Below are positions 1-42,114 of a stretch of 64,000 nt of DNA, piece after piece. A program made the translations under genes and the position numbers. This stretch comes from an uncultured Candidatus Peribacteria bacterium (GTDB taxonomy: Bacteria; Patescibacteriota; Gracilibacteria; UBA1369). The stretch is from contig CAZGKO010000002.1 in NCBI GenBank assembly GCA_964526005.1, positions 4,927-68,926 of the forward strand, read 5' to 3'. Under the pieces are notes generated by a model. It was given only the letters and a program-made list of their open reading frames with translations, did not search any database and was not told the DNA's origin. Every line of letters starts with the position of its first letter. The first letter of the stretch is position 1.

Positions 1-537
1 ATTTCCATTTACACCTGCCTGCAATGTAGATTTATCAGAAATCTTTAATGCCTGATTTAATGACTTATTGATGCCATTAATCCTATCTTGATATTTAGTA
101 AGTGCATCACCTGAAACAGATTTCTTAGTTTTTAGATAATTAAATTTGTTAGATAAATTATGTTTAATATCTGATACTTTAGTGTGAATAAAGTCCTGAA
201 TTTCCTTAAATGCTACAGGGGCGGTGGAAATTTTATTAAATCGCAATTGAGGATGTTGTCTGGCAGCCTGCTGAAGAAGATTAATAATGTTAAGAGATGC
301 TTTAGCAAGGGTGTCTTTGTTAGAACGGATGCTGGCAAGAATATTGATTTGTTCGTTTTCGGTTAGATTTTTATTGGATATTCGATTAAAATTGTTCGTA
401 AGATACTTAGTATAAGTTTTGCGTGATTGTGGATCTTTAATTTTAGAGGCATATTTTAATAATTGAGCAATGCAACCCTTAACATAATCAAACTTGCTCC
501 AAGTTGTTGCTTCTTGTAAGAACGTGCCTAAGCCCAT
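1..537 (-). CDS. hypothetical protein, partial (3' end lies beyond the left edge)
   Basis: Own minus-strand translation. ATG at 535-537, then MGLGTFLQEATTWSKFDYVKGCIAQLLKYASKIKDPQSRK...LQAGVNGN stays open to nt 1 (179 codons). Absent from the ORF track because no stop lies in the window. Same frame as 583..2073. Confidence 0.55.
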   Translation of the reverse strand, partial: MGLGTFLQEATTWSKFDYVKGCIAQLLKYASKIKDPQSRKTYTKYLTNNFNRISNKNLTENEQINILASIRSNKDTLAKASLNIINLLQQAARQHPQLRFNKISTAPVAFKEIQDFIHTKVSDIKHNLSNKFNYLKTKKSVSGDALTKYQDRINGINKSLNQALKISDKSTLQAGVNGN

Positions 538-582
538 GCCATCTGCTCCTGAGTTATTAAGAGATTGTTGATTAAAAATTTT

Positions 583-2073
583 TTAATAAACCCCGGAATT
601 GTTATATAGTTTTCCCGCCTGTTTATAAATTTCCTTGGACTCATCCATGCCACCCCAAATGGAACCTGCGAACATAGCACCTTCAAGCTGACGACGAGTA
701 TTTGATTGTTCAAGTAAACGATTGGTTTCCACACCTCCTGCTACTGCCCCTGCAATCGTCCCTTCCGGTCCTCCTAGGGATCCTACTATCGCCCCAGCAG
801 CTGCTCCCTCCGCGTCAAGCAAGGCTCTTGCAATATCATGTTTTATGCTTTTTGTTCCCTGATATTCTCCAATAAGTGCATTATTGCGTGATGGATCTGT
901 AAGACGCTTGATTTTAGCAGTTGTTTGATGCCAATTAGTGGTATTAACTGCCTCAGTTGAAGGTTTTATTTTGAAAAGAAAATCCAATTGAGCATCTTCA
1001 TTATCTTTTGTATCTAATGCTTTTAATTTTTGAAATTGATTAATTAAATATCGTTCATATTTATTTTTTTGAGATAGATTCTGACTGTAAGTATCGTTCA
1101 TCAATAATAATGAAGCCATCAAACCATGTACTCGATCAAATTTAGAATATGATTTAACTACTTCTAAATAAGGTTTTAAATGCATTCCATATTGTAAATC
1201 TGTATAATCCAATCTATTACCCCATTTCTCAGAATAAAGTTTTTTAGTTTTTTGCATTTCCATATTAATCATATTTTTACCTGCTTTATCTCCTCCGTTA
1301 AAAATATGAATACCATATAGGTAACCATCTAAAACACGTCGTGTGCGATTATTGGAATTTGTTTCTTTGCTGAAAGGATTAATGCTGTCTTCATAATCGG
1401 AAATTGTAGCATTAGGCCTATCAGGATCAGTTTTTAAATCAATTTGTGCGGTTATTGCTTGTCGAGCAAGAGGGGTTTTAGGGGTAGTAAGTTGATCGTG
1501 TTTAGATTTTCCCAAATCTTTACTATGCTTTGATTTATATTGTTCTAACCGCGCTATTTCTGGATTTATTGTATTAAAATCTGCAGGTATTTCGGTTTTG
1601 GGGGGCATGTTAAATTGATCGGATGCTTTAGGTTGAATGCGGTTTTTAAATGGAGCTAAATGTCTTACAGCAGTTCTTGTTTGTTTCACAATTTGGCTTT
1701 TCTGTCGCATATAATTATCAACTAAAGAATCAATAATTGCATCACGATTAGCTTCGGTATCAATTGAAGAGTTATGAATTTTGGCGTAGACATTAGTATC
1801 TATAGATTTAAGTTTTGAACCATTCATAATATACTGAACAATTCTAGTGGTATCATTATTGTGATTTTCTTTTAATCGTTTTTTAATCTTCTTGCTATTA
1901 AAACCTTTATCGCCTAATTGTGAAATAGTGTTTGTTAAATGGGTAATTTCATCACTTGCGGTTAAATTTCTAGAATTTTCCTGACTTGAGGATCCTGAAG
2001 GCTGGTGTGCGGATTGAAAAATTAAGCGAGAAGGGACAGAAAAACTATAATTTGATTTCTTTTTATAAAACAT
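583..2073 (-). CDS. hypothetical 496-aa protein with C-terminal glycine-zipper-like segment
   Basis: Long ORF in AT-rich DNA with no signal peptide. C-terminal AAAGAIVGSLGGPEGTIAGAVAGG and GAMFAGSIWGG (nt ~646-816) are small-residue zipper repeats. No family recognised. Confidence 0.7.
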   Translation of the reverse strand: MFYKKKSNYSFSVPSRLIFQSAHQPSGSSSQENSRNLTASDEITHLTNTISQLGDKGFNSKKIKKRLKENHNNDTTRIVQYIMNGSKLKSIDTNVYAKIHNSSIDTEANRDAIIDSLVDNYMRQKSQIVKQTRTAVRHLAPFKNRIQPKASDQFNMPPKTEIPADFNTINPEIARLEQYKSKHSKDLGKSKHDQLTTPKTPLARQAITAQIDLKTDPDRPNATISDYEDSINPFSKETNSNNRTRRVLDGYLYGIHIFNGGDKAGKNMINMEMQKTKKLYSEKWGNRLDYTDLQYGMHLKPYLEVVKSYSKFDRVHGLMASLLLMNDTYSQNLSQKNKYERYLINQFQKLKALDTKDNEDAQLDFLFKIKPSTEAVNTTNWHQTTAKIKRLTDPSRNNALIGEYQGTKSIKHDIARALLDAEGAAAGAIVGSLGGPEGTIAGAVAGGVETNRLLEQSNTRRQLEGAMFAGSIWGGMDESKEIYKQAGKLYNNSGVY

Positions 2074-2084
2074 GATTATTTTTT

Positions 2085-2101
2085 TAAATCTTTATATTAT
2101 A
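2085..2101 (-). promoter_or_regulatory. -10 box plus conserved start-site element (TATAATATAAAGATTTA)
   Basis: Minus strand reads gcTATAATATAAAGATTTAAAAAAATAATC-ATG(2073). The identical 17-mer occurs at 63169-63185(+). Copies with 1-2 mismatches occur at 12310-12326, 13828-13844 and 6021-6037. Confidence 0.5.
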
Positions 2102-2136
2102 GCATAAAAAACTTTAAAATAAAAGAATACGATAGA

Positions 2137-2300
2137 GATCCTGAAACAAGTTCAGGACGAGGGGGTCTCGGTTCAGGACGAGTGGGTGAAAGAAAGGGTA
2201 GATCCTCATTTATAGTTGAAATGAGGAGGGGTGAAAGGATATATTCCAGAGGGGATTCATGGTTGAAATGGGTTCAGTTCAAAATTTGGGTTCGGCGCAT
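2137..2300 (+). repeat. purine-rich intergenic repeat element (member of a dispersed family)
   Basis: GTTCAGGACGAG occurs twice, 21 nt apart. Hairpins: tcctgaa-acaag-ttcagga and cctcattt-atagttg-aaatgagg. Shares CTCGGTTCAGRA with 32331-32342 and GATCCTG...TTCAGGA with 35660-35708. Confidence 0.4.
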
Positions 2301-2361
2301 CTATAGATTATAGCATTAATTTCAAGTTTTTTCAAATTTATTTGTGATTTTTATTTATAAA

Positions 2362-2384
2362 GCCCCCGTCCGATGGACGGGGGC
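2362..2384 (-). terminator. GC-rich hairpin downstream of 2437..3012
   Basis: gcccccgtcc-gat-ggacgggggc, a 10-bp stem about 50 nt after the stop. The U-tract on the minus strand is weak (tttataaataaaaa). Confidence 0.45.
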
Positions 2385-2436
2385 GTGAGAGAACATGACA
2401 GTGGGCGAATGAGAAACAAGATAGATTACAAATAAA

Positions 2437-3012
2437 TTATGCTTCTTGACTGTTAGATTTAATATATTTTTTGGCAACTTTGATAACCTGTTGGACTGCT
2501 TCTGGGTATGACGGTTTGGCTTTATTAATAGGAAAGATTATATAATTAAGAGCCGGATATTTTTTATCTGGATCACGTTCAATGGTGGTCACTTGAATAT
2601 TGGTCACTCTGCCAATTTCATTATAATCAGCTGAAAAAATTAAGCCTGGGAATGCTTTAATAAAATAATTAGAATTGTCCTTTTGGATCTTAGCTAAATC
2701 TGAATATTTATTTAAAATAGTAACCAAAAAACGTTCTTGCGAAATTAAATAATTATAATCAGGTTTTGAATTTGTAATATTTTCATAAATAGATTTGCAT
2801 GAAAATGAACATTCTTTTTGTCTGGCCATTTCTCTTCTTTCAATCGTTTGTTGTGAGTGATCAAGATTATGTTGAAATGCTAAACTTTCATTGCTGATTT
2901 TCCCTGTTTGATCGCGACCACTAAGTAGATTGGAAAGATTTTTCATAGATTGATTAAGCTCTGTCAGGGAAACTGATTTGTTTTTAAATTGCTTTTTAAT
3001 TGTCCCAATCAT
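2437..3012 (-). CDS. hypothetical protein (191 aa)
   Basis: ORF starts 8 nt after the stop of 3021..3470. No recognisable motifs. Confidence 0.65.
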   Translation of the reverse strand: MIGTIKKQFKNKSVSLTELNQSMKNLSNLLSGRDQTGKISNESLAFQHNLDHSQQTIERREMARQKECSFSCKSIYENITNSKPDYNYLISQERFLVTILNKYSDLAKIQKDNSNYFIKAFPGLIFSADYNEIGRVTNIQVTTIERDPDKKYPALNYIIFPINKAKPSYPEAVQQVIKVAKKYIKSNSQEA

Positions 3013-3020
3013 GTTTTCAG

Positions 3021-3470
3021 CTAGTTTTTTTGTCTTAAAGCAAAAGGATCACTGTTCTCAACTGTGTTTTGATAATAAAGTAAGGCACTAAAATGCTGTT
3101 GAAGAATGTTAAATCTGCTTTTTAACGCTCGTTCAGAACTTTGAATATCTACTTTTCGACTGGAAAAATTTTCAGGTTTAAGAATTCGCGAAATATCCAA
3201 TAGGGCTTTTTGACGAATTGCTTTTTTTTCTGTCAGATTACTCCCTCTTAAATCAGTTAAAGCAGAATCTAAACGTGCTTTAGCCGCATCAATTCTAATA
3301 GCTAAGTCGGGATTTTCTATTTTGGCACGATAAGCTAGTTCTTTCATCATTTTATTAGCTTGTTCGGGTGCCTGAATTTCGCCGCGTAAAGCTGCTGTTA
3401 CTGTGGCTTGGGCTAGAGAGAGGATGTCTTTATTTTGATGTTTTTGTGGTTTAGATGATGGTGCTCCCAT
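3021..3470 (-). CDS. hypothetical helical protein (149 aa)
   Basis: Starts 1 nt after the stop of the small ORF 3472..3876. Polar N-terminus MGAPSSKPQKHQNK, no signal peptide. Confidence 0.65.
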   Translation of the reverse strand: MGAPSSKPQKHQNKDILSLAQATVTAALRGEIQAPEQANKMMKELAYRAKIENPDLAIRIDAAKARLDSALTDLRGSNLTEKKAIRQKALLDISRILKPENFSSRKVDIQSSERALKSRFNILQQHFSALLYYQNTVENSDPFALRQKN

Positions 3471-3471
3471 A

Positions 3472-3876
3472 TTATTTATTTTTTAAAGATTTTAGTAATT
3501 TTTGTGTAATTTGTTCTTCAGTTTTTTCATATTTCTTTTCAGCCTGCTTTATTTTTTGATAAATATCTTGATGTTTTAAACTTTCCAATTCAATTTGGAA
3601 ATTAGTATAAATTTTCTTAGTTTCAGAAAGATTTTTTTTATCAATTTCAATATATTGAGCTCTTTCTGTAATTAAAGTAAAATAAAGAGACTGGGCTTGT
3701 TCAGATTCCGGAGCATGAGCGATTTTCAATGTTTCTAATAATTGTAATGGTTTTAAAGAACGAACAGCGGATGATTCGTTGATTAAATCGAGTAGATCTT
3801 GGATTGTGAAGAGATAAGTTGGCATTAGTTTATGAAGCGGTTGAGTCAATAATATCGGAGTCATAAGCTTGAACAA
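3472..3876 (-). CDS. small helical protein, family member 4 (134 aa; start uncertain)
   Basis: The track start at 3876 is TTG; the first ATG is at 3864. Shares SLKPLQL..HAP and QYIEIDKKNL with NLEPDQL..HAP and QILDLDKNYL of 5055..5378. Confidence 0.6.
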   Translation of the reverse strand: MFKLMTPILLTQPLHKLMPTYLFTIQDLLDLINESSAVRSLKPLQLLETLKIAHAPESEQAQSLYFTLITERAQYIEIDKKNLSETKKIYTNFQIELESLKHQDIYQKIKQAEKKYEKTEEQITQKLLKSLKNK

Positions 3877-3913
3877 AGCTTTTTAATTTATGATTATATA
3901 CTTATAATTTATG

Positions 3914-5050
3914 TTATGAGTTTGCTAAACGATTCCAGTTAGTGGAATAAGGCGGGTATTTTATTGTGTTTATGGCATGTTTATGAATGGATGGCATTGA
4001 TTTGCTAATGTCATCATTAGTTATTTTTTTTGGTGGTTTAGCTGATTTTTTGAGAATATTGAGAGCAGATTTAAATCTGTAAAGATTTACTTCCAACTCA
4101 TTAAGTTTCTCTATAGCCCACCGTAATTCATGGAAAGCTGTATTTGCATTATCGAGAGATGTTTTTAATAATTTTGTAGCACTGTTTAAGCTTAGCATAT
4201 TGAGGAGTTTGTTGCTGTTTCTTCTTTTCTCTGTCTGAGTGGAGTTGGTGGGGGGATACTTGTTGTTGTAATTCTTAAATGCTGATTTATATGCCTTCAT
4301 AGATGACTTCAATGATGGGAGAGCCTTGTTATAATAATCGACCTGCTTATCTTTCAAAGCATGTTGTTTTCCTTCCAAGGTGCCTAATAGCTTTTTATAG
4401 TTGTTATAAATGTGCGGGTACTTCGTTATAGCAGTTGTATTAGCCTTAATTTCTAATGACAGGTTTGTTGAAAGTAACAACTTGGCATCAAGGATCGACA
4501 TAGATTTCAACTTAATATACTCCATCTTCTTAGAAGCCTCAGTATCATTCCCCTTAGCTTTCTTAGCTTTCTTAGCTTTCTTAGCAGCCTTAGCTTTCTT
4601 AGCAGCCTCAGTAATAATCTCAGTTTTCTTAGTAGCCACTTCACTTTTTAAACCTGTTTTTTTATACCAATACTTATACTTATTTGATGGAGTGATATTA
4701 GAGTTGACCATAACTGAAGTAAGTAGATTCTTAAGTTGAGTATTTGCCTTTTTCGCATTAATGTCGTGGCTGTTTTCAGCTTGGACCGAAAGTCGATAAG
4801 CCTTCTTGAGATCAGTGATTTTCTGCTGAATTTTCTTATGACCTGAAGAAGATTTTAATTTAGCTTCAAGTTTGGCAATGGCGTTTTTAGCAAAAACACG
4901 AGTCATATTTCTTTTTTCCATAGCTGCAGTAATGATCTTTTTTGTTTCTGGAGGTTTTTTGGAAAATTTTGCTGGTTTTTCTGGATTCTTCTTTGGTGTT
5001 GGTGCTGGTGTTGGTGCTGGTTTAGGTGCTGGTTTAGGTGCGGAGCTCAT
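3914..5050 (-). CDS. Lys/Ala/Pro-rich hypothetical protein (378 aa)
   Basis: N-terminal SAPKPAPKPAPTPAPTPKK and internal KKAKAAKKAKKAKKAK low-complexity tracts. The rest is K/N-rich and helical. No signal peptide. Confidence 0.65.
   Translation of the reverse strand: MSSAPKPAPKPAPTPAPTPKKNPEKPAKFSKKPPETKKIITAAMEKRNMTRVFAKNAIAKLEAKLKSSSGHKKIQQKITDLKKAYRLSVQAENSHDINAKKANTQLKNLLTSVMVNSNITPSNKYKYWYKKTGLKSEVATKKTEIITEAAKKAKAAKKAKKAKKAKGNDTEASKKMEYIKLKSMSILDAKLLLSTNLSLEIKANTTAITKYPHIYNNYKKLLGTLEGKQHALKDKQVDYYNKALPSLKSSMKAYKSAFKNYNNKYPPTNSTQTEKRRNSNKLLNMLSLNSATKLLKTSLDNANTAFHELRWAIEKLNELEVNLYRFKSALNILKKSAKPPKKITNDDISKSMPSIHKHAINTIKYPPYSTNWNRLANS
4552..4608 (-). repeat. 9-nt coding microsatellite (AKK repeats)
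   Basis: Plus strand cttagctttcttagctttcttagctttcttagcagccttagctttcttagcagcc, encoding KKAKAAKKAKKAKKAK. Confidence 0.8.
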
Positions 5051-5054
5051 ATTT

Positions 5055-5378
5055 TTATTTAGTTAAATTTATGTTTTTTAATTGATGTTGACGATCTTGC
5101 TCCTCTTCTTTTATTTGGGAATCTTTAAGAAAATCATTGGCGGAAGAAATTTGTTGTTGTAAATCTGTAGCCGCTTGATTTGCTAAATCGTTTTGAATTT
5201 GTAAGGAATCTAAATAATTCTTATCTAAATCAAGAATTTGTTTGCTGGCTAAAATTAAAGTTTTAGCAGGTGCGTGCTGATAAAGTTCCAAAAAATATTT
5301 TAGTTGATCTGGTTCCAAATTTTGAGCAATTGGAGAGTTTTTAAGAATTCGACTGAATTGTTTATAAATTATTTTCAT
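5055..5378 (-). CDS. small helical protein, family member 3 (107 aa)
   Basis: Stop lies 4 nt before the start of 3914..5050. Start abuts the stop of 5379..6002. Shares motifs with 3472..3876. Confidence 0.65.
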   Translation of the reverse strand: MKIIYKQFSRILKNSPIAQNLEPDQLKYFLELYQHAPAKTLILASKQILDLDKNYLDSLQIQNDLANQAATDLQQQISSANDFLKDSQIKEEEQDRQHQLKNINLTK

Positions 5379-6002
5379 TTAATTTAAATAATTTTTATTA
5401 GCCTGATCACGAATATTGTGGGCAATTCCTTTAATTTCTCGACGTACGTTTTTTTGTTCAATACGTTCCCGATGTAAACGTTGTCTAACATAAGCAGCAT
5501 TATTTCCCATGTGTTCTTCAATTTTCATAATCGGCTTAATAAGTGGTACGATGGGTCTTAATTCAGGGAAAAATAAGGCACCAACTTTAATTCCATATTT
5601 TAATAGAATTTTTTCAGCCCCACCTAATTTAGCAACTTTTTTCTCCATTACTTCACCCTGTTCATCAAGATGACCTTTATAATTCAGTAATCCCACTTTT
5701 ATCATATATTCAATTGGACCACCAATTCCAGGTATACGAGCGAATGTTATTGCAGACAATTGAGCGTTTTTTGGAAGTTTGTTCCAAGCTGTACGTAATG
5801 ACTTCATGGAAGAAGTTTTGTCAATCGTGGATACAAGTTTATAAAGTATTTCTTTGTTCTTAGGATGTTTCGCAAGTTGTTCAATCTGATTAGCGATTCT
5901 CTCCTGTTTAGATTCTGGTTTTTTCATTGATTTTAGCGCTTTTTCATTTTTTGAAAAATCGTATTTAGATAATTCAGATGTTGGGGTTATATGTTCTTTC
6001 AT
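5379..6002 (-). CDS. hypothetical protein (207 aa)
   Basis: First gene after a good promoter. Moderately hydrophobic Gly-rich centre (RIPGIGGPIEYMIKVGLL, KLGGAEKILLKYGIKVGALFF). No family recognised. Confidence 0.65.
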   Translation of the reverse strand: MKEHITPTSELSKYDFSKNEKALKSMKKPESKQERIANQIEQLAKHPKNKEILYKLVSTIDKTSSMKSLRTAWNKLPKNAQLSAITFARIPGIGGPIEYMIKVGLLNYKGHLDEQGEVMEKKVAKLGGAEKILLKYGIKVGALFFPELRPIVPLIKPIMKIEEHMGNNAAYVRQRLHRERIEQKNVRREIKGIAHNIRDQANKNYLN

Positions 6003-6020
6003 TTTGTTTATGTTATTAAA

Positions 6021-6060
6021 TAAATCTTTTAATTATACTATATTTTATATATTAATGCAA
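6021..6060 (-). promoter_or_regulatory. sigma70-type promoter of the 6002..2437 operon
   Basis: Minus strand: TTGCAT (6055-6060), 17-nt spacer, TATAAT (6032-6037), then TAAAAGATTTA start-site element. ATG is 29 nt after the -10. Confidence 0.6.
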
Positions 6061-6216
6061 GAGGGGAGGAGCCCCTTCCTGAAATGAATTTAGGATCAAG
6101 CCAAAGTTGAGGATATGATGTGGAAACAAATTCGTAATGAGGAAAGTCAAAATTGATAATAATTTTAGCTTTTTTACGTTATAATTAGTGAAATTTATTT
6201 AATTATTTTTTAAAAA

Positions 6217-7551: not shown

Positions 7552-10500
7552 AATGGACTTGTCGCCACAATAGCAGGTTGTTGTGACGGTGGTGGATTTT
7601 TGTGATCAATATTAGTAGAAATATTGGCTTTAATTTCTTGCGTAATAGTTATTGTACCAATACTTTTGATGTCCTCGGTAGGTGAGTGAGAATGTTTATT
7701 AATCCACTTAATTTGGAGTGCTTCGGGAGTGTTTTTAGATGGATCTACACCAATACGGTCATAATAATCCAATTTAATTTGATTACTGTATTGTTCAGAA
7801 CAATATCTTAATTGAGCAGAAGACAAATTACCATTAATTAAAACAAGATGGAAACCCGTCCCCTCGGTTGGAGGTTTGCGAAAAAGTGCGATATCATGGG
7901 AATTAATTGTTCCCTGTTTAGGATGATTGAAATCAATAGGTAAATGTTTAATAATGTTCTTTATTATTTCTGCAGATTTCATTAAATAGGTGTCTCCTCC
8001 AATATGTCCAAAAACTTCATTGATTGATTTAAGTTTAATATCCAGATTATATGTGGAAAATGTTTTGTGTTTGATTGTATTTTCATTAAGAAATTCACCA
8101 AAGGAAACATTATTGGGTAAGCCTGTTAAAGAATCATATAATTTCAATTTAATTAAATAATTATGATGAAATTCCAGAAATTTATGTCGATACATATCTA
8201 AATTTTGTCCCAGGGATTCACGAAGAGAATTAAAAAGTTTATTATTGAAAGATGTTGAATTGATTATTTTTAATAATATTTCACGAACTTTTATAGGAAC
8301 TTTGTCCAATAATGGTTTGATTTCTTTCCAACCGCGCACTTTTTCCATAACATTAAATTCGGCATGGGTTTTATCGACAAGTTCATAATAAATTTGGTGG
8401 AGATGTGTCGCCTGAGATAATTGACCGGGTTGCGGTGAGTCTGATTTAACAGTAATTGGAAGTAGATTATAAATAACTCTATTTCGTCCACTTATTTTCC
8501 CTTGCTCAAGAATCCTATCTGCGGAACGATTAAGATTATCAAAAATGCGATGTGGTGGGAATTTGGGATGATCTCCAGCAAATTCAACGATGCCAATGGT
8601 AGAACCTCCAATTGGACCACGACCTTGAGAGGTCTCATTAATGATTTGTTTGGGAGTTAAATCATATCGAATTTTACCACTTGCCTGTAAATATTCTATT
8701 AAATTTTTAACTAGATGGGGATCAATCTCATTTAATTCATGAATAATATTCTGTTGTAAATTAATTCGGAATTGATCCATTGTTTTTGCAAGTGTAACAG
8801 AATCCATACCTTTAATATAAACTTTAATTTCTTCTCCACCTTCACGAATAGCGATGGCCTCATGACCATCAGCATGTAATTTATTGACTAAATTATGAAA
8901 ATTTTCACTAATAACTTTAATTAAGACATCACCAAAATGAGTTCCTTTTAATTTATTAAAACTTCCAAAATAATCTCCATCAAATGAAGCTACAGAAAAT
9001 TTTTCTTTAGCTTTTATCCAGTTTTCTACGAATTTACTTGCATGTCGATTATAAAGTCCAGTCATTTGATCAAGGAGGGCATCGCTCCATGCTTTAGCCA
9101 TATATTCTGATTGATCTGGATTTTGTCGAATAGATTCAGATAATTTTTGAGTATTGATTTTACCATTAAGATTATGATTAAGTTCTGTTATTTTATTGAA
9201 TTCGGTACTCCCTTCAAGATAAGGTTGTAAAGGATTATCATTAGTGACTTTAGAGATTTGTTCACTGAAATATGCTTTTTTACCTATAATACTAATTTCC
9301 CTCGGAGTATTGTCGCGGGGGGTTAAATCTATTCCTTTGCCAACTTCGGAAATAGTAATTGGTTCATAATTTTGTTCGGCTGATTCTTTTTTAGTGGTTA
9401 ATGTGGAGATGTTTGTGTCTGAATCAATCCTTTCCATAACATCATGTCCCCATCTTAAACCTAAAATAGTGGCTATATCTTTGATATTAACCTGTCCATG
9501 AATTGCTCCCATAGTTGCAATGTCCACTGAATAACTGGCATAGGAATTAATTTCCAAAGCTTTTGAAAATCTGCCAGTGACTCCGAGAGCACCAAGCATT
9601 AAAAGATTTTTAGCCCATTCATTTTGCATACTTTTTCGAATATTAAAATGTCCAGAACGAATTCCTTCAATAACTGCATTGGAAGAAGTAAAAACTGTGT
9701 TTTCCACTAAAAGTCCACCTGCATAAGAAGCTAATCGACGAGCTCCAGAAATTACACCAAAAGTGGCAGCTTCTGCGGTCGCCTCCGACATTCCTATACG
9801 AAGTAACGCTCCAGAAATAGCACCTCCAGCCAATCCACTTATTCCTCCGCTAACAGCTATTATGGCAATATTGATCGGTAATTCCTGTACTAATTGATGC
9901 AATTCTTTATCGGAAATGGCAAAAGTGTTGTGACCAAATATTTTACGTGGCGCAATCCCTTCCATTTCGGCATATTCATTCCAAATCGGTTGTAAATCTG
10001 GCGGCAAAAGAGAAGTGTCTTCTTGCTGTTGTAATTTCACTTCCTGCGGACGGATCTTTTGCAACATGGCATTTTGTAATGCATTATAAGCTTTTCTGTC
10101 ATCAAAAGGATGTGACTTTACATAATCCTTTCCAAACCTTTGAAGATATTCTTGTTTGGCTTGCTTGACGCGATTGTTAAGTTCATAATGAAATGTAGGA
10201 TTGGCATCATATTTAAGTTTAAGTTGATTAATTGTAACAGATGTTTGTGCAAGACGATTAAGTCTGTGACGAAAATATAATTCAAAATATTGCTCAGCTA
10301 ATTTGGTATTACCTTGCTGATGATATTTGCGTGCCAAAGCGAGAATTCCTTCTTTTCCTTTTTCATATTCAATTTGATCTCCAATAACATCAAATTTAGA
10401 ATCAGTGGAAAATTTGAGTTGAATTTTTTCTTTACGAACAGCGGTGGCAAAATCTAAATATTTACCAGTACTAATGGGATTTTTAAGTTTAGTAATTCCA

Positions 10501-11954
10501 TTAGCGATTTGTTTATAATGAGTATAAGCTAAAGTTGTCTGGGTAGAAGGCAAACCTCGATGTATGCCATGTGAATATATAATATATTTCTGAGGAGGAG
10601 TTATTTTTGCAAATTTTTCTTTTACCTGCTGATATTCAGTTTGACAGATTTTTATTAGTAGTTGACGTGCGGATTCACGATAATCAATTTTGCCTTTAAT
10701 TGGCGGTTGTTTATTGATTTTTTCATAATAGATCAATAATAATTTTTTAGCACTAATTAAATTTTGATTAGCTAAAAGTTTCCGGGCTTGAAAAAATTCT
10801 TTATTGTCACCAGTTGCCTGTTCAACTTTTTGTAAAATTAATTGGGCACGTTGTTTATAACTTTCTTTTCTAGCGACAAGTTCAGAATTAGAGGTGAAAG
10901 CCGTTGATTTGATGTCCTGATCTAAAAATTGATGAAGAGTTTTTTGTGCTGTATCTAAATCACCCTGCTCAGCTTCTTTAATACCTCTCCAAAAATTAAC
11001 TGTGGCCTGAGGTGCGGTAAGGGCTTTAATATCTTCCTGTAATTTAATTTTAACCACCGCCATTTCTATCATGATTTGTTTTTTCTTTTTGAGTGGTAAA
11101 TTTTTGAAAGTTTTGCTGGCTTCAAATTTGGGATTTAAAGGATTCTTTAAATTTGCCCTTATCACAAAATATTTGCTGTATCCAGAAGTATATATTTTTT
11201 GATACAGCTCAATAATTAGTTTTTTCTCACCAAGAAAATCAATCTGCTCCTTTAATGTTTTCTGTCTTAATTTTAGATATTCTGAAGGAAGAGTAGAGTG
11301 CGCTTCAAGCTGGCGACGTAATTTACCTGAATTAGAAAGTGCTTGACTTAAGAAATTAGTTATTTCAGAAGAAAATATATCTGATTGACCTACTCGTGCA
11401 TCAATTTGTTGTTTAATTATTTCACGAGAATTGTTAAGTTTATTAAATTGTTTTTCAAGGATAGAAATGGTTTTAATGTTTGTTGTATATTTTTCGAGTG
11501 AAGTCCTTAGTTTCAATCCTGTAATATTTAAACTTTCATAAGATTTCGGGGTTGCAGGAGTGGAAGTGATATGGGAAGGTTTAAATATTATATGAGAATT
11601 TGAAGATTTATCAGTTGTTGCCCCATTAGTTCTTTTCTCGGCTTTAGTTTTGTTGGCTTTGGCAGCAAGTGCTTCGTTATAAAGAGCCGCGCCGCGATTA
11701 GCGGCGCGGCGGAGTAAAGAATTAATATCATTTTCCCCCTGAATAAAATATTTTTTTGCTTCTTCTGGTCCTTGATCTAATTTTTCTCTTTTTTGAAGAG
11801 TCTGAAATTCATTAACCTGATTGATAAAAATATTTTGATAATTTCCAGATGCAAAAATTCGATTTCCTATTGCGAGATTTTGTTTTTCCTTCTCTACTTG
11901 AGTAGAGATTTTAGACTGCTGGGTATCTATTTGTCTCCCCATTCCTTTAGGCAT
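7548..11954 (-). CDS. giant 1468-aa protein: helical-repeat N-region, Gly-rich membrane core, tandem GGDEF-like domains
   Basis: GGDEF domain 1 (nt ~8469-9071): DQMTGLYNRH, FDGDYFGSFNKLKGTHFGD, REGGEEI, SADRILEQGKISGRNRV. Domain 2 (nt ~7827-8135): DSLTGLPNN, LDIKLKSINEVFGHIGGD, with the signature degenerated to TEGTGF. Hydrophobic Gly-rich core INIAIIAVSGGISGLAGGAISGALL... at nt ~9450-9875. Confidence 0.8.
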   Translation of the reverse strand: MPKGMGRQIDTQQSKISTQVEKEKQNLAIGNRIFASGNYQNIFINQVNEFQTLQKREKLDQGPEEAKKYFIQGENDINSLLRRAANRGAALYNEALAAKANKTKAEKRTNGATTDKSSNSHIIFKPSHITSTPATPKSYESLNITGLKLRTSLEKYTTNIKTISILEKQFNKLNNSREIIKQQIDARVGQSDIFSSEITNFLSQALSNSGKLRRQLEAHSTLPSEYLKLRQKTLKEQIDFLGEKKLIIELYQKIYTSGYSKYFVIRANLKNPLNPKFEASKTFKNLPLKKKKQIMIEMAVVKIKLQEDIKALTAPQATVNFWRGIKEAEQGDLDTAQKTLHQFLDQDIKSTAFTSNSELVARKESYKQRAQLILQKVEQATGDNKEFFQARKLLANQNLISAKKLLLIYYEKINKQPPIKGKIDYRESARQLLIKICQTEYQQVKEKFAKITPPQKYIIYSHGIHRGLPSTQTTLAYTHYKQIANGITKLKNPISTGKYLDFATAVRKEKIQLKFSTDSKFDVIGDQIEYEKGKEGILALARKYHQQGNTKLAEQYFELYFRHRLNRLAQTSVTINQLKLKYDANPTFHYELNNRVKQAKQEYLQRFGKDYVKSHPFDDRKAYNALQNAMLQKIRPQEVKLQQQEDTSLLPPDLQPIWNEYAEMEGIAPRKIFGHNTFAISDKELHQLVQELPINIAIIAVSGGISGLAGGAISGALLRIGMSEATAEAATFGVISGARRLASYAGGLLVENTVFTSSNAVIEGIRSGHFNIRKSMQNEWAKNLLMLGALGVTGRFSKALEINSYASYSVDIATMGAIHGQVNIKDIATILGLRWGHDVMERIDSDTNISTLTTKKESAEQNYEPITISEVGKGIDLTPRDNTPREISIIGKKAYFSEQISKVTNDNPLQPYLEGSTEFNKITELNHNLNGKINTQKLSESIRQNPDQSEYMAKAWSDALLDQMTGLYNRHASKFVENWIKAKEKFSVASFDGDYFGSFNKLKGTHFGDVLIKVISENFHNLVNKLHADGHEAIAIREGGEEIKVYIKGMDSVTLAKTMDQFRINLQQNIIHELNEIDPHLVKNLIEYLQASGKIRYDLTPKQIINETSQGRGPIGGSTIGIVEFAGDHPKFPPHRIFDNLNRSADRILEQGKISGRNRVIYNLLPITVKSDSPQPGQLSQATHLHQIYYELVDKTHAEFNVMEKVRGWKEIKPLLDKVPIKVREILLKIINSTSFNNKLFNSLRESLGQNLDMYRHKFLEFHHNYLIKLKLYDSLTGLPNNVSFGEFLNENTIKHKTFSTYNLDIKLKSINEVFGHIGGDTYLMKSAEIIKNIIKHLPIDFNHPKQGTINSHDIALFRKPPTEGTGFHLVLINGNLSSAQLRYCSEQYSNQIKLDYYDRIGVDPSKNTPEALQIKWINKHSHSPTEDIKSIGTITITQEIKANISTNIDHKNPPPSQQPAIVATSPF

Positions 11955-11958
11955 AAGT

Positions 11959-12297
11959 TTAGAGATTTTTTATTTGTTTTTCGATTTTTCGTTCTGCTTC
12001 TTTCTTTTCAAGATGTTCTTTAGTGGAATGAATATTGCGAGTAGTCTTTTGAATAATTGTTTTGAGTTCACTTAAGAGCTGATGATTATTATCTTCAGCT
12101 AAAGCCAATTCAATAAATTGATCGATTTTAATATTGGAATCCCTTAATTGCTCTCCAATAAGTTGGATAATAATTGGAGGGAGTTCAGGTGAAATTGTTT
12201 TCCAATATTCTTTGTCTGTAGTTGACAGTAATATAGATTTTTGAAGATTTTTAAGTAGAATTTCATTCCAATTTGAAAGATTTTGTTTTTGAGGCAT
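11959..12297 (-). CDS. small helical protein, family member 2 (112 aa)
   Basis: Stop lies 4 nt before the start of the 1468-aa ORF. N-terminus MPQKQNL...KEYWKT parallels MASKQIL...NDIWKS of 13513..13818. Confidence 0.65.
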   Translation of the reverse strand: MPQKQNLSNWNEILLKNLQKSILLSTTDKEYWKTISPELPPIIIQLIGEQLRDSNIKIDQFIELALAEDNNHQLLSELKTIIQKTTRNIHSTKEHLEKKEAERKIEKQIKNL

Positions 12298-12309
12298 AGG
12301 AATACATAT

Positions 12310-12329
12310 TAAATCTTAATATTATACCA
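12310..12329 (-). promoter_or_regulatory. extended -10 promoter plus conserved start-site element
   Basis: Minus strand: TGGTATAATATTAAGATTTAATATGTATTCCT-ATG(12297). Nearly identical to the region upstream of 13818. Confidence 0.55.
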
Positions 12330-12418
12330 TAAAAAGCAGCTCTTTATTGAACTATAAGCTATAAATGAAATAAATAGGAATTGACTAAATAAGTTAAAGG
12401 TGTTTTGATTTTTCGCTT

Positions 12419-12862
12419 TTAATCCTCGAAAAATTTTAAACTTTCTATTTTAATTCTCTGAATAAGATTGTTATCAAGCTTTTGAAAATCGCTGGAATTA
12501 GCTAGAATGTCAGGGAATTGTTCTTCCATTTTATAGAGAATTAAAGCGGCGGCACCTTTTAAAAAATGATCTAATTCAGTTTTAGGAAATTGTGGACCAC
12601 TAGAAATGGGAGGATAATTACGATAAAAAAAATAAATATAAACTATTTTAAGAATAAATCTTTCTGCAGCCTTTTGTTCATTATCTGGAAATATGTTAAA
12701 AGATTCTTTTAAAATTGGAATAATGTGAATATGAAAAGCTTCTATTGACTCCTTATAGACTTTTAATTCATTAAGTTGTTTGATAATTTGGAAGATTGAA
12801 TTGATTAATAAATTATAAATAACCGGGTTTTCACGATTGTTATCTAGTCTATTTATGGACAT
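12419..12862 (-). CDS. hypothetical protein (147 aa)
   Basis: ORF with its own TATAAT (12894-12899, minus) followed by CTGTTAAGATAAATAA. No family recognised. Confidence 0.6.
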   Translation of the reverse strand: MSINRLDNNRENPVIYNLLINSIFQIIKQLNELKVYKESIEAFHIHIIPILKESFNIFPDNEQKAAERFILKIVYIYFFYRNYPPISSGPQFPKTELDHFLKGAAALILYKMEEQFPDILANSSDFQKLDNNLIQRIKIESLKFFED

Positions 12863-12934
12863 AATTTGATTATTAGGTTATTTATCTTAACAGATTATAA
12901 TCTCTTTAGCAAGGACTATCCGATATATAGAAAT

Positions 12935-13501
12935 TTAACTTGTTTTTCTGTCTTGACCCGTCAATTTCTTATAGGTTTGATCGCTCACTGATCTTAAAAA
13001 TGTTCTGGAAGAAGGATCAAAATTAGTCTCTTTACGGTAGAAATAGTGTATTTTTTGAGCTGTGGTCTCATCATAAACAGCGGCAAAATAGAAAGTTTTT
13101 CCATTAATATCAACATTTACACCAGAATTAGTGGCAAAATGTTCTTTTGGGAGAGGATTTTTTAAAGCATTGATAATTTGTCTATAAGTATTTTTATCAA
13201 TACCATGTATTGGTCTATGAGGATTCATTTTTTTACCTTCTTTATAAAAGGCAATAATGTCTGCGCGTGCACTCGCATCGGTTCTCTTAGCCTCCTGTAA
13301 AATTGATGTTTGCTGATATTTAAGCTCTATATTTTTGTTTGGAGTAGATTGTTTTGAAGTGGCGCTTAATTCCGTGGCCTTGGGAGGCATCATTTGGTCC
13401 ATTTTCTTTTTAGCCTGCTCGGCGGTTGATTGTTTCTGAGCTTCATGGGGAGCTTCAGAGGGAATAGGTTGAAAAAAATAAATTAATCGATTTTCAAACA
13501 T
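12935..13501 (-). CDS. hypothetical protein (188 aa)
   Basis: Starts 11 nt after the stop of the small ORF 13513..13818. Disordered polar N-half, no signal peptide. Confidence 0.65.
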   Translation of the reverse strand: MFENRLIYFFQPIPSEAPHEAQKQSTAEQAKKKMDQMMPPKATELSATSKQSTPNKNIELKYQQTSILQEAKRTDASARADIIAFYKEGKKMNPHRPIHGIDKNTYRQIINALKNPLPKEHFATNSGVNVDINGKTFYFAAVYDETTAQKIHYFYRKETNFDPSSRTFLRSVSDQTYKKLTGQDRKTS

Positions 13502-13512
13502 AATGTTATGGG

Positions 13513-13818
13513 TTATTGATTGTTAAAAATGGTTTTTAAAAGTTTTTCAGCCCGAGTTAAATCCTGCTTTTGTTGTGATGCTTCAGCTATATGAAGATTT
13601 TTTTTCTGTAATCTTGTTTTAGCAGTTTTTTTAATCTGTCTAATCTCAATTTGTTGATCTTGTGTTTGAATATTAATGATGGCCTGATTTATTTCCCGAT
13701 CTGATCTATCTTGATATTCCAAACAAGATTTCCAAATGTCATTTTCTTTAAATTCTGCAAAATAGAGAGAATGTTTAGCTATATTAAATAATTTTTCGAG
13801 AATTTGTTTTGAGGCCAT
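13513..13818 (-). CDS. small helical protein, family member 1 (101 aa)
   Basis: Q/K/E-rich helical ORF. Its promoter, leader and first codons are paralogous to those of 11959..12297. Confidence 0.65.
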   Translation of the reverse strand: MASKQILEKLFNIAKHSLYFAEFKENDIWKSCLEYQDRSDREINQAIINIQTQDQQIEIRQIKKTAKTRLQKKNLHIAEASQQKQDLTRAEKLLKTIFNNQ

Positions 13819-13827
13819 GGGAAATAT

Positions 13828-13847
13828 TAAATCTTAGTATTATAACA
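13828..13847 (-). promoter_or_regulatory. extended -10 promoter plus conserved start-site element
   Basis: Minus strand: TGTTATAATACTAAGATTTAATATTTCCC-ATG(13818). Confidence 0.55.
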
Positions 13848-41866: not shown

Positions 41867-42114
41867 TTTTATATTTGTTGATGTAGTTCGTACTTTAATA
41901 ATAAAGCAAATTAGGTTTTTTTTCAAATATTTTGTGCGGATATTTTATGTGGACATTTGATGTAGACATTTGATCAACGGGTAATCAACATAGGTTTTTA
42001 AGCATTAATAACCGAGATAGGCGTATATATATGAGGTGAATATCATTTAAATTAATAATAATTTTCTATTGCCAAAAAAGACACACTTGCTTATATTTAA
42101 CAGGCAAAATTCGA

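What the first reader, a model, noticed from the sequence alone, without database searches (positions are those of the whole stretch)
1..13818. ORFan island built from repeated 'small helical protein + larger signal-less protein' units
Thirteen minus-strand ORFs, including the partial one at 1..537, show no motif I can place in any known family.

Four small (101-134 aa) Q/K/E-rich, apparently all-helical ORFs each stop 1-11 nt before the start of a larger ORF:
- 13513..13818, before a 188-aa ORF
- 11959..12297, before the 1468-aa ORF
- 5055..5378, before a 378-aa ORF
- 3472..3876, before a 149-aa ORF

The small proteins look paralogous. (N/S)L(E/K)PxQL...HAP...Q(Y)I(L/E)xxDK(N/K)xL is shared by 5055..5378 and 3472..3876. 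KQxL...(D/E)(I/Y)WK(S/T) is shared by 13513..13818 and 11959..12297.

The large partners lack signal peptides and begin with polar, disordered N-termini. Two of the large proteins in the island (583..2073 and 7548..11954) carry glycine-zipper-like membrane segments.

This gene logic resembles chaperone or adaptor plus cargo pairs of specialised secretion systems (for example the small helical partners of LXG toxins in T7SS, or T3SS/T6SS adaptors). No secretion ATPase or machinery gene lies in the window, so the function is open. It could equally be a membrane-remodelling or signalling scaffold.
Basis: partly seen in the sequence, partly recalled or inferred. Interest (0 to 1): 0.75.

Follow-up and report, generated by a model that had tools for sequence, protein, structure and literature searches.

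The report
Small partner plus giant modular protein
In a block of unannotated genes from an uncultivated small-genome bacterium, one of four proposed 'small helper + large protein' pairs is a conserved two-gene cassette, a 112-residue partner followed by a 1,468-residue membrane-anchored protein whose new 840-residue front end recurs in about 30 relatives with varied, mosaic back ends (here a cyclic-di-GMP synthase); the other three pairs remain unproven.

Summary
The ORFs and their tight spacing are real, but the island is not four paralogous units.

**What holds up**
- The 112-aa ORF at 11959-12297 (p10) and the 1468-aa ORF at 7548-11954 (p9) form a conserved cassette.
- A full HMMER search found about 30 relatives of p9, 1100-2800 aa long.
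- They share an N-terminal module of about 840 aa: long helices, a TPR-like solenoid, then a glycine-zipper hydrophobic region.
- Their C-termini are mosaic: tandem GGDEF here; protein kinase, 2H phosphoesterase, DUF6687 or unannotated elsewhere.
- A p10 homologue lies 0-18 nt upstream of the large gene in all seven relatives' loci with DNA.
- Neither family matches Pfam or PDB. One member is annotated Candidatus Peregrinibacteria.

**What does not**
- p9 does have a known motif: two GGDEF domains.
- 583-2073 and 1-537 are one 1192-aa gene split by an in-frame TAA; another assembly has it intact.
- Paralogy among the small proteins is marginal for 3472-3876 versus 5055-5378 and unsupported for 13513-13818 versus p10.

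**Best reading**
p9 is a membrane-anchored scaffold or sensor with a c-di-GMP output, and p10 is its dedicated partner. An exported polymorphic effector with a chaperone is not excluded.

The parts
11959..12297 (-). p10: 112-aa small partner protein. First gene of the cassette and founding member of a new small-protein family (conserved LLSxxDKxFW...LP...KN..I..YI..AL..DP..L.TELK..IK).
   Evidence: Homologues lie 0-18 nt upstream of every p9 homologue whose DNA was read. A 5-sequence HMM finds held-out members at 1e-28 and 1e-25. No Pfam or PDB match. 84% aa identity and dN/dS 0.63 versus L011.
7548..11954 (-). p9: 1468-aa modular protein, made of a conserved N-terminal module, a hydrophobic Gly-zipper region and tandem GGDEF domains.
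   Evidence: ORF. 33 homologues in the full HMMER search, 29 of them below 1e-10. Domain census. Mosaic C-termini.
9444..11954 (-). N-terminal family module of p9 (aa 1-837): MPKG..QID..Q start motif, long helices 6-256, TPR-like helical solenoid 288-665.
   Evidence: HMM boundaries. AF2 with a 29-sequence alignment gave mean pLDDT 75, and 85-95 over most of aa ~200-665. No PDB match by sequence or by fold.
9444..9893 (-). Glycine-zipper / hydrophobic region of p9 (aa 688-837). It has one strongly hydrophobic conserved segment, LPINIAIIAVSGGISGLAGGAISG (aa 692-715), then amphipathic Gly-rich helices with invariant E751, F755, G788 and G794.
   Evidence: Low pLDDT in the AF2 model.
8550..9092 (-). 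GGDEF domain 1 of p9 (aa ~955-1135), with motif GGEEI at 8826-8840. The N and GD guanine-contact residues are present and there is no RxxD I-site. It is probably an active diguanylate cyclase.
   Evidence: Pfam PF00990, E 1.2e-17. Alignment to solved cyclases 8c05 and 6zxb. Motif positions. Activity is inferred, not shown.
7635..8147 (-). GGDEF-like domain 2 of p9 (aa ~1270-1440). It is degenerate: the signature reads TEGTGF and the second metal-binding Asp is Lys.
   Evidence: Second stretch of the Pfam hit. Sequence inspection.
12310..12326 (-). Promoter-like element TGgTATAATAttAAGATTTAA, 12 nt before the p10 start codon.
   Evidence: The same element is kept in relative L011. Related extended -10 elements lie before the p10 homologues in L004-L007 and L009; none is evident in L010.
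11686..11710 (-). Perfect 10-bp all-G/C hairpin followed by TCTTTAT, inside p9 codons 82-90.
   Evidence: -24.5 kcal/mol, z -5.0. Identical in L011 although the flanks differ, and built from codons that are rare in the island.
13513..13818 (-). p13: 101-aa small ORF. First gene of the unit p13-p12, with the same promoter element at 13828-13844.
   Evidence: No family found. hhalign to the p10 family gave P 0.019 over 31 columns, not significant.
12935..13501 (-). p12: 188-aa ORF, with a polar N-terminal ~60 aa and then a small alpha/beta domain.
   Evidence: Single-sequence AF2 gave pLDDT 56. Foldseek found nothing below E 0.07.
12419..12862 (-). p11: 147-aa ORF between the two units.
   Evidence: A partial orthologue lies upstream of p10 in L011.
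5379..6002 (-). p8: 207-aa ORF. First gene of the unit p8-p7-p6, with the promoter element at 6021-6037.
   Evidence: dN/dS 0.42 versus L002.
5055..5378 (-). p7: 107-aa small ORF.
   Evidence: dN/dS 0.19 and 94% nt identity versus L002. Marginal similarity to p5.
3914..5050 (-). p6: 378-aa very basic, low-complexity protein (K+R 80, D+E 26), hypervariable between strains.
   Evidence: 77% nt and 51% aa identity on a contig where p7 and p8 are 93-94% identical. The sequence is unrelated after about aa 165.
3472..3876 (-). p5: 134-aa small ORF. It has a TTG start; ATG alternatives lie at codons 5 and 18.
2437..3470 (-). p4 (3021-3470, 149 aa) and p3 (2437-3012, 191 aa).
   Evidence: No family found.
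1..2073 (-). p2/p1: a single gene (1192 aa when intact) interrupted by an in-frame TAA at 583-585. It has a Gly-zipper at aa 423-446 and an internal repeat. The gene continues beyond the left edge of the window.
   Evidence: The promoter element lies at 2085-2101.

Best explanation
**What the island is.** It is a cluster of lineage-specific, fast-evolving genes in four to six short transcription units. At least four of these units start with the same promoter type. It is not four diverged copies of one 'small + large' unit.

**The p10-p9 cassette.** One unit, p10-p9 (7548-12297), is a conserved two-gene cassette of a deep clade of small-genome, Patescibacteria-type bacteria.

- p9 is a membrane-anchored modular protein.
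- Its first ~690 residues (long helices plus a TPR-like solenoid, no signal peptide) stay in the cytoplasm.
- A conserved glycine-zipper hydrophobic region (aa 692-837) ties it to the membrane.
- The C-terminal part is exchangeable between lineages.
- In this genome the C-terminal part is a tandem GGDEF: the first domain probably makes c-di-GMP and the second is degenerate and probably regulatory.
- p10 is made from the same mRNA immediately before p9. It is the dedicated binding partner of the conserved module, either a stabilising or targeting subunit or a regulator of it.
- The N-module then acts as a scaffold or sensor that controls the enzymatic output.

**Shown:** the two families, their invariable adjacency, the domain architecture, and the variability of the C-termini.

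**Inferred:** physical binding of p10 to p9, membrane topology, cyclase activity, and the direction of control.

**The other units.** The remaining small ORFs (p13, p7, p5) may play the same role for their downstream neighbours. Only their size, composition and position support this.
For: **Family and synteny**
- 33 homologues share aa 1-840 of p9.
- A p10 homologue lies upstream of the large gene in 7 of 7 relatives' loci with DNA, across 27-30% identity in the large protein. An eighth locus without DNA has a 118-aa gene in the same place.
- The gaps between the two genes are 0-18 nt, and a promoter lies directly before the small gene.

**Architecture**
- The C-termini are mosaic. Every one that Pfam can name in the family is an NTP-using or nucleotide-processing enzyme: GGDEF, Pkinase (3-4 members), 2H phosphoesterase. 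Conserved sensor modules combined with different output domains behave this way (general knowledge of bacterial signalling proteins).
- The AF2 model is confident over aa 140-690: all-helical, coiled coil plus TPR-like.
- One conserved strongly hydrophobic segment is followed by amphipathic Gly-rich helices.
- GGDEF domain 1 keeps the substrate-binding residues.

**Genomic setting and constraint**
- The cassettes sit among housekeeping genes, at one or two copies per locus, rather than inside mobile islands.
- The genes are under purifying selection: dN/dS 0.19-0.63 for p7, p8, p10 and the p9 N-terminus.
- The promoter element is shared by four units.
Against: - 21 of 27 C-termini have no Pfam match and are 550-1900 aa long. 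That is unusually large for signalling outputs.
- Only one segment is clearly transmembrane. A single pass would put the GGDEF domains outside the cell, where there is no GTP.
- A ~200-aa gene follows the large gene only where the extreme C-terminal domain is shared (P0028 and P0029). That pattern looks like a toxin-immunity pair.
- No direct evidence exists that p10 binds p9. The mirror-tree correlation is weak (r 0.24, p 0.22) and no fused form was found.
- No c-di-GMP receptor was looked for.
- No homologues could be obtained for the other three pairs, so extending the model to them is guesswork.
Confidence: 0.45

Rival explanations
1. This is the reader's main idea: exported polymorphic effectors. 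The conserved N-module of p9 would be a trafficking and membrane-translocation module. p10 would be its secretion chaperone or adaptor. The variable C-terminus would be a payload delivered into another cell, for example the bacterial host of an epibiotic Patescibacterium. Downstream genes would encode immunity where one is needed.
For: - The family has a conserved N-terminus and mosaic C-termini.
- The small helical gene is tightly coupled upstream, as with LXG/Lap and Esx substrate/targeting-factor pairs (for the analogy; for the synteny).
- The extreme N-terminal motif MPGExDxxIDxAQ is strongly conserved.
- A Gly-zipper region with an invariant Glu sits in a hydrophobic stretch.
- A ~200-aa downstream gene co-varies with one C-terminal type, and a different 122-aa gene follows a unique C-terminus in L006.
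- Neighbouring genes are hypervariable.
- The lineage is CPR, whose members are often epibionts.
Against: - No known trafficking domain (LXG, PAAR, RHS, WXG100, MIX) was detected, and no known toxin domain.
- The nameable C-termini are signalling enzymes.
- p9 itself has no downstream immunity-like gene; the next gene is convergent.
- No secretion ATPase lies in the window.
- The co-variation rests on two loci.
- The cassettes are vertically inherited among housekeeping genes.
Confidence: 0.25
2. All four small proteins are diverged paralogues of one ancestral partner gene. On this view the island arose by repeated duplication of a 'partner + cargo' unit.
For: - The four share size, composition and position.
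- p5 versus p7: z of about 4, p of about 0.002.
- p13 aligns in register with the DKxFW motif of the p10 family (hhalign P 0.019).
- A 97-aa ORF upstream of a large ORF in L010 resembles p13, p7 and p5 weakly (p 0.001-0.016).
- Relatives carry further small-plus-giant pairs from other families.
Against: - No comparison survives correction for the number of pairs tested.
- The p10-family HMM scores p13, p7 and p5 at background level.
- The large partners are unrelated to one another.
- No DNA-level repeats link the units apart from the promoter.
Confidence: 0.15
3. The region is decaying, non-functional DNA, and the small ORFs are spurious.
For: - An in-frame stop splits p2/p1.
- p9 is frameshifted and p11 shortened in L011.
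- p6 is truncated or divergent in L002.
- No Shine-Dalgarno sequence is visible upstream of the genes.
Against: - dN/dS is below 1 for p7, p8, p10 and the p9 N-terminus.
- p10 and p9 are conserved across a deep clade.
- L002 and L011 have only 1.3-1.5x coverage, so their frameshifts may be sequencing errors.
- Promoters are conserved.
- Coding density is very high, with intact long ORFs.
Confidence: 0.05

Closest known systems
LXG polymorphic toxins with Lap1/Lap2 small helical partners (type VIIb secretion, Bacillota), and analogous Esx substrate + WXG100-like targeting-factor pairs
   Same: One or more genes of about 100 aa encoding helical proteins lie directly upstream of a large protein. 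That large protein has a conserved helical N-terminus and a variable C-terminus, sometimes followed by a cognate small gene. The Esx substrate/targeting-factor arrangement is described in PMC13622651.
   Different: - There is no LXG, WXG100, DUF3130 or DUF3958 signature.
- The conserved module is about 840 aa with a TPR-like solenoid and a hydrophobic Gly-zipper region, not a ~200-aa LXG helix bundle.
- No EssC-type ATPase was seen.
- The nameable C-termini are signalling enzymes rather than toxins.
Polymorphic toxin systems in the sense of Zhang, Aravind and colleagues (conserved trafficking N-terminus, recombining C-terminal toxin, adjacent immunity gene); named from my own knowledge
   Same: The N-terminus is conserved and the C-termini are mosaic. 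One downstream gene co-varies with one C-terminal type. One member carries a 2H-SAK phosphoesterase domain, whose Pfam model is named 'Swiss Army Knife, 2H phosphoesterase domain'; I recall this domain class from work on biological-conflict systems, which I did not check.
   Different: No recognised trafficking or toxin domain is present. This locus and several others have no immunity candidate. The family appears vertically inherited among housekeeping genes.
Membrane-bound GGDEF and kinase sensor proteins built on shared N-terminal sensor modules (for example the MASE, CHASE and 7TMR-DISM classes); general knowledge
   Same: One conserved N-terminal module with a membrane region is combined in different genomes with GGDEF, Ser/Thr kinase or phosphoesterase outputs.
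   Different: - The module here is mostly soluble (690 aa of helices) and has only one clear hydrophobic segment.
- It always comes with a dedicated small upstream gene.
- Most C-termini are very large and unannotated.
T6SS prePAAR or Rhs effectors with Eag (DUF1795) chaperones that shield N-terminal transmembrane helices; from my own knowledge
   Same: A dedicated small protein is encoded directly upstream of a large effector that contains hydrophobic helices.
   Different: Eag chaperones are beta-rich and the effector's transmembrane helices are N-terminal. Here the partner looks helical and the hydrophobic region lies 690 aa into the protein. No T6SS genes are present.

Membership tests
GGDEF diguanylate cyclases (Pfam PF00990) | Significant match to the GGDEF domain model | tested here: met
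   E 1.2e-17, 64.5 bits against a cut-off of 23.8, two stretches. Aligns to solved cyclases 8c05, 6zxb and 5euh.
GGDEF diguanylate cyclases (Pfam PF00990) | Catalytic GG(D/E)EF signature with metal-binding and guanine-binding residues | tested here: inconclusive
   Domain 1 reads GGEEI (Phe to Ile). DxD, N, GD and the TIGI strand are present. Domain 2 is degenerate (TEGTGF). Enzyme activity was not tested.
T7SSb LXG toxin / Lap partner modules | LXG domain at the N-terminus of the large protein | tested here: not met
   No Pfam LXG hit for p9 or for 26 relatives. The AF2 model shows a different and far larger module.
T7SSb LXG toxin / Lap partner modules | Partner belongs to the WXG100, DUF3130 or DUF3958 families | tested here: not met
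   No Pfam hit for five p10-family members at E up to 0.5. No PDB hit with the family profile.
T7SSb LXG toxin / Lap partner modules | EssC/FtsK-type secretion ATPase in the genome | not testable with these tools
   None in the 64-kb window. The rest of the genome could not be fetched.
Polymorphic toxin systems | Conserved N-terminal region joined to variable, recombining C-terminal domains | tested here: met
   The N-module is present in 33 proteins. The C-termini fall into at least five mosaic groups plus unique ones, p9 among the unique ones.
Polymorphic toxin systems | C-terminal domain is a recognised toxin, and the adjacent immunity gene co-varies with it | tested here: inconclusive
   No toxin domain was recognised. 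A ~200-aa gene is shared only by two loci whose large proteins share the last domain. p9, L004 and L009 have no candidate.
Type III secretion class I chaperones (CesT/SycE-like) | Match to a chaperone family model, and an alpha/beta fold | tested here: not met
   No Pfam hit for any small ORF. The composition (0-1 Gly, K/E/Q-rich) points to all-helical proteins. FtsZ, FtsA and MurB in the window, plus the CPR affiliation of one family member, argue against a chlamydia-like T3SS organism.
New family proposed here: p10-type partner + p9-type N-module cassette | The two genes are adjacent on the same strand with the partner first, in every genome that has the large protein | tested here: met
   Window plus L004, L005, L006, L007/L008, L009, L010 and L011. 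The gene table for the 927-kb contig shows a 118-aa gene in the same place.

The most novel reading that the evidence does not exclude
The p10/p9 cassette, and perhaps the other small-plus-giant pairs seen in this island and in relatives, would be the substrate side of a so far undescribed effector-delivery route of Patescibacteria. A dedicated small chaperone would hand a giant protein to the envelope. The conserved glycine-zipper module would carry the variable C-terminal enzyme (diguanylate cyclase, protein kinase, phosphoesterase) into the cytoplasm of the bacterial host. There it would rewire host second-messenger or phospho-signalling for the benefit of the epibiont.
Probability: 0.15. 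Interest if true: 0.85.

Novelty: new variant of a known kind. Interest (0 to 1): 0.55.

Why it matters
Patescibacteria make up a large share of bacterial diversity. Roughly half of their genes are unannotated, and how they attach to, sense or manipulate host cells is largely unknown.

This work defines two linked protein families that are absent from Pfam and PDB:
- a ~110-aa partner;
- an ~840-aa helical, membrane-associated module that carries interchangeable enzymatic domains.

It also gives a diagnostic gene order for finding them.

If the module is a sensor or scaffold, it is a new input domain for c-di-GMP and kinase signalling in ultra-small bacteria. Diguanylate cyclase genes have been linked to attached lifestyles in these organisms (PMC9938205).

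If it is a delivery module, it would be a first handle on effector export in this radiation.

Either way, the pair is a concrete and cheap target for AlphaFold-Multimer, co-expression and cyclase assays.

Tried and rejected
**Searches that led nowhere**
- Word-index homologue searches returned nothing or only the query itself: ten small proteins concatenated, p9 whole, and the N-module profile. The concatenation was a mistake, because even the self-matches were lost.
- Two genome-contig scans, with the neighbouring AcrB-like protein and with SHMT, found no relative. The source genome, its left flank and its taxon were therefore not recovered.
- Exact look-ups of p2 and p9 in the contig index also failed.
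- PHROGs and PADLOC gave no meaningful hits. The region is therefore not a recognisable prophage or known defence system.
- Rfam found only three tRNAs, all elsewhere in the window.

**Structure attempts**
- Single-sequence AF2 of p12 had low confidence (pLDDT 56) and Foldseek was uninformative.
- Foldseek of the confident N-module model gave only weak TPR-like matches, all with E above 1.

**Tests with negative or weak results**
- The N-module HMM found no second copy among the island proteins, so the Gly-zipper of p2/p1 is not a homologue of that in p9.
- No fusion of a p10-like domain to a large protein was found.
- The mirror-tree test of p10 against the N-module was not significant.
- The idea that the organism is chlamydia-like, prompted by its long SHMT and a Pmp-like choice-of-anchor Q protein, was dropped because FtsZ, FtsA and MurB are present.
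- Apart from the promoter element, no DNA repeats link the units.

Full report

I label the thirteen minus-strand ORFs p13 (13513-13818) down to p1 (1-537). The four small ORFs end 11, 4, 4 and 1 nt before the next ORF. They are K/E/Q-rich with 0-1 glycine.

Three parts of the description need correcting.

- p9 (7548-11954, 1468 aa) does carry a known motif. It has two GGDEF domains (Pfam E 1.2e-17) and aligns to solved diguanylate cyclases.
- p2 (583-2073) and p1 (1-537) are in the same frame and separated by one TAA codon. A second NCBI assembly encodes a single 1192-aa protein that is identical except for V495I and Tyr in place of the stop. The similarity between p1 and p2 (E 3e-6) is an internal repeat of that one gene.
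- Tight spacing is a property of the operons in general, not of the small-to-large junctions. p8 to p7 is 0 nt and p4 to p3 is 8 nt.

A plus-strand gene at 6217-7551 divides the block. It has a hydrophobic, signal-peptide-like N-terminus (by eye), two FlgD-Ig domains and two SLH domains. The G+C content of the island (29-34%) is the same as the rest of the window.

**2. Are the small proteins paralogues?**

Smith-Waterman scores were compared with shuffles. For p5 versus p7, z is about 4 and p about 0.002-0.003. That is marginal once 21-36 pairs have been tested. For p10 versus p13, p is about 0.1.

After I had obtained real homologues of p10 (section 4), an HMM of that family scored p13, p7 and p5 at background level. 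hhalign gave P 0.019, 0.16 and 0.17.

The alignments for p13 and p7 are in register with the family's DKxFW...LP motif. A very distant relationship therefore cannot be excluded, but it is not shown.

**3. What library searches say**

- Apart from GGDEF, no island protein matches Pfam, PHROGs, PADLOC or PDB sequences at a meaningful level.
- The rest of the window is ordinary: an RND pump and its adaptor, RF2, SHMT, the F-ATPase operon, RNase J, RarA, FtsZ/FtsA/MurB, 2-oxoacid:ferredoxin oxidoreductase, and further SLH-domain proteins.
- The word-index protein searches failed on these low-complexity sequences.
- Both genome scans found nothing.

**4. The key result: a protein family behind p9**

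My one exhaustive HMMER search used p9 aa 1-950. It returned 33 proteins, 29 of them below 1e-10. The full-length hits are about 1100-2800 aa, alongside a few short fragments. They share the first ~840 residues and begin with a strongly conserved MPGExDxxIDxAQ...VDxFQ.

Their C-termini differ. A Pfam census of 27 members found:

| C-terminal domain | Members |
|---|---|
| Pkinase | 3 (a PK_Tyr_Ser-Thr match in 1 member, possibly one of the same 3) |
| GGDEF | 1 (p9 only) |
| 2H-SAK phosphoesterase | 1 |
| DUF6687 | 1 |
| No Pfam match | the remainder |

All-against-all comparison of the C-terminal parts shows several mosaic groups. It also shows unique tails, p9 among them. One member is in NCBI as MBD3328363.1, a hypothetical protein of a Candidatus Peregrinibacteria bacterium. 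Another lies on a 927,715-bp contig. MurB and peptide deformylase of the window are 45-50% identical to those next to two family members. The family therefore belongs to a deep clade of small-genome, Patescibacteria-type organisms. I did not establish the window's own taxon directly.

**5. The pair is conserved**

I read DNA around seven family members: L004, L005, L006, L007/L008, L009, L010 and L011. In every one, a 106-121-aa ORF lies 0-18 nt upstream of the large gene on the same strand. Each of these ORFs is homologous to p10.

- phmmer gave 7.6e-13 to 6.9e-6.
- A 5-sequence HMM found the two held-out members at 1e-28 and 1e-25.
- L011 carries an orthologue with 84% aa identity.

The gene table of the 927-kb contig shows a 118-aa gene in the same position.

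No homologue of p2-p8 or p11-p13 was detectable in these loci. The close relative L002 (86% nt) keeps p8-p7-p6. L011 keeps p11-p10-p9.

**6. Anatomy of p9**

AlphaFold2 with a 29-sequence alignment gave mean pLDDT 75, and 85-95 over most of aa ~200-665. The predicted parts are:

- long helices at aa 6-256;
- a TPR-like helical solenoid at aa 288-665;
- low-confidence helices at aa 700-850.

Foldseek against the PDB found nothing better than E about 1, all weak TPR-like matches. The family profile finds no PDB sequence.

Across the family there is one strongly hydrophobic conserved segment (aa 692-715, LPINIAIIAVSGGISGLAGGAISG). It is followed by amphipathic glycine-rich helices with invariant E751, F755, G788 and G794.

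GGDEF domain 1 reads GGEEI. It keeps the DxD, Asn and GD residues that contact metal and guanine in known cyclases, and it has no RxxD inhibitory site. Domain 2 is degenerate.

**7. Transcription units**

An extended -10 promoter followed by AAGATTTAA (TTTATGgTATAATAnnAAGATTTAA) lies 10-20 nt before the start codons of p13, p10, p8 and p2. The exact core occurs five times in 64 kb. Four of these are in the island. The fifth lies before a protein with a hydrophobic, signal-peptide-like N-terminus starting near 63195.

The element is kept before p10 in L011. Related forms lie before the p10 homologues in L004-L007 and L009; I saw none before the L010 small gene.

The likely units are [p13 p12], [p11], [p10 p9], [p8 p7 p6], [p5 p4 p3] and [p2/p1]. 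No Shine-Dalgarno sequence is visible.

**8. Evolutionary behaviour**

| Gene | dN/dS or identity | Source |
|---|---|---|
| p7 | dN/dS 0.19 | |
| p8 | dN/dS 0.42 | |
| p9, first 94 codons | dN/dS 0.39 | |
| p10 | dN/dS 0.63 | |
| p6 | 77% nt and 51% aa identity, where p7 and p8 on the same contig are 93-94% identical | |

These are real genes. p6 stands out as far more divergent than its neighbours, and its sequence is unrelated after about aa 165. The comparison contigs have only 1.3-1.5x coverage, so their frameshifts should not be over-read.

**9. How it most likely works**

Both NTP-dependent enzymes found at the C-termini (GGDEF, protein kinase) need a cytoplasm. The N-module has no signal peptide. 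The simplest model has four parts.

- p9 is held at the membrane by the glycine-zipper region.
- Its helical and TPR part and its enzymatic part both face the cytoplasm.
- The conserved module acts as a scaffold or sensor for a lineage-specific output, here c-di-GMP.
- p10 is its obligate small partner, co-translated from the same mRNA.

I give this model 0.45.

The main rival is an exported polymorphic effector with a chaperone, at 0.25. It draws support from three things:

- the conserved-N / variable-C architecture;
- the conserved extreme N-terminus;
- a ~200-aa downstream gene shared only by the two loci whose large proteins share their last domain (34% identity, E 4e-31).

Against it:

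- no known trafficking, toxin or secretion-machinery component was found;
- p9 has no downstream immunity-like gene;
- the cassettes sit among housekeeping genes. In two relatives the cassette lies between a PilB-type ATPase and NusA, inside a conserved block of XerC, FtsE, DprA, PilB, NusA, RecX and RecA.

**10. The other pairs**

Relatives carry further small-plus-giant arrangements from unrelated families:

- 104 / 2220 (Metallophos) / 160 aa in L007;
- 105 / 1406 / 198 aa on the 927-kb contig;
- 97 / at least 676 aa in L010.

For p13/p12, p7/p6 and p5/p4, however, I have no homologues, no structures and no significant paralogy. They remain candidates only.

**11. Novelty**

The kind of arrangement is familiar from LXG/Lap, Eag/prePAAR and polymorphic toxin systems: a small dedicated partner upstream of a large protein with a conserved front end and a variable back end. 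Membership in each of those was tested and not met. The two families themselves are absent from Pfam and the PDB, and my searches of the paper library turned up no description of them, though sequence motifs cannot be searched there. I rate the finding a new variant of a known kind, with interest 0.55.

Noticed in passing
window 583-585 (minus strand): A single in-frame TAA splits a 1192-aa gene into ORFs 583-2073 and 1-537. Another NCBI assembly of nearly the same strain has TAY (Tyr) there and an intact gene. This is either a strain-level nonsense polymorphism or an assembly error.
   Followed up: yes
window 13828-13844, 12310-12326, 6021-6037, 2085-2101 (minus strand); 63169-63185 (plus strand): The conserved element TGnTATAATAnnAAGATTTA(A) lies 10-20 nt upstream of start codons, leaving very short leaders with no Shine-Dalgarno sequence. 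Four of the five exact copies in 64 kb are in the island. The AAGATT part is also kept before p10 homologues in distant relatives (L006, L007). It could be a regulon mark or the clade's strong-promoter and transcription-start consensus.
   Followed up: partly
window 11686-11710 (minus strand), inside p9 codons 82-90: A perfect 10-bp all-G/C hairpin (GCCGCGCCGC-TAATC-GCGGCGCGGC) is followed by TCTTTAT in a 33% G+C genome. It folds at -24.5 kcal/mol (z -5) and is built from codons that are rare in the island. It is identical in relative L011 although the flanks differ, and absent at the DNA level from distant relatives. It looks like an intrinsic terminator or attenuator embedded in coding sequence. 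Its function is unknown.
   Followed up: partly
window 3914-5050 (minus strand) versus L002 675-1211: p6, a very basic protein (21% K+R) with PAPKPAP and AKKAKK repeats, is hypervariable. It shows 77% nt and 51% aa identity on a contig where the adjacent p7 and p8 are 93-94% identical, and the sequence is unrelated beyond about aa 165.
   Followed up: partly
L007 16310-23806; L010 2-2355 (minus strand); gene table of the 927,715-bp JGI contig: Relatives carry additional 'small (~97-105 aa) + giant (at least 676 to 2220 aa) + ~160-200 aa' gene sets whose large proteins are unrelated to p9. One has a calcineurin-like phosphoesterase domain. The 104-aa and 97-aa small ORFs show only weak similarity to the p10 family or to p13, p7 and p5.
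   Followed up: partly
L007 14066-14662 and L010 9969-10571: A ~200-aa protein (34% identity between the two, E 4e-31, no Pfam match) follows the large gene only in the two loci whose large proteins share the same extreme C-terminal domain. It is a candidate cognate or immunity protein.
   Followed up: partly
window 6217-7551 (plus strand); L004 5961-7193; L006 3036-6056; L009 15403-16122: SLH-domain surface proteins lie next to or near the cassette in four loci, but they share only the SLH domain. The window's copy also has two FlgD-Ig domains encoded by a 345-nt internal direct repeat (88% identical over an 84-nt core).
   Followed up: partly
window 37085-41926 (minus strand): A 1613-aa protein with a choice-of-anchor Q domain and a bacterial TSP3 repeat lies in the only stretch of the window with raised G+C (38.5-40% against about 33%). 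It may have been acquired horizontally.
   Followed up: no
L006 14804-19013: Directly downstream of the cassette in this relative lies a small mobile element: an XRE-type HTH, an ImmA-like HExxH peptidase, a Phage_CRI-type replication initiator and a large serine recombinase.
   Followed up: no
window 23872-25368 (plus strand): The SHMT is the long (498-aa) form and matches NCBIfam equivalog NF010094 just above its cut-off (752.8 against 735 bits). This is an unusual subtype whose taxonomic distribution I could not check.
   Followed up: no
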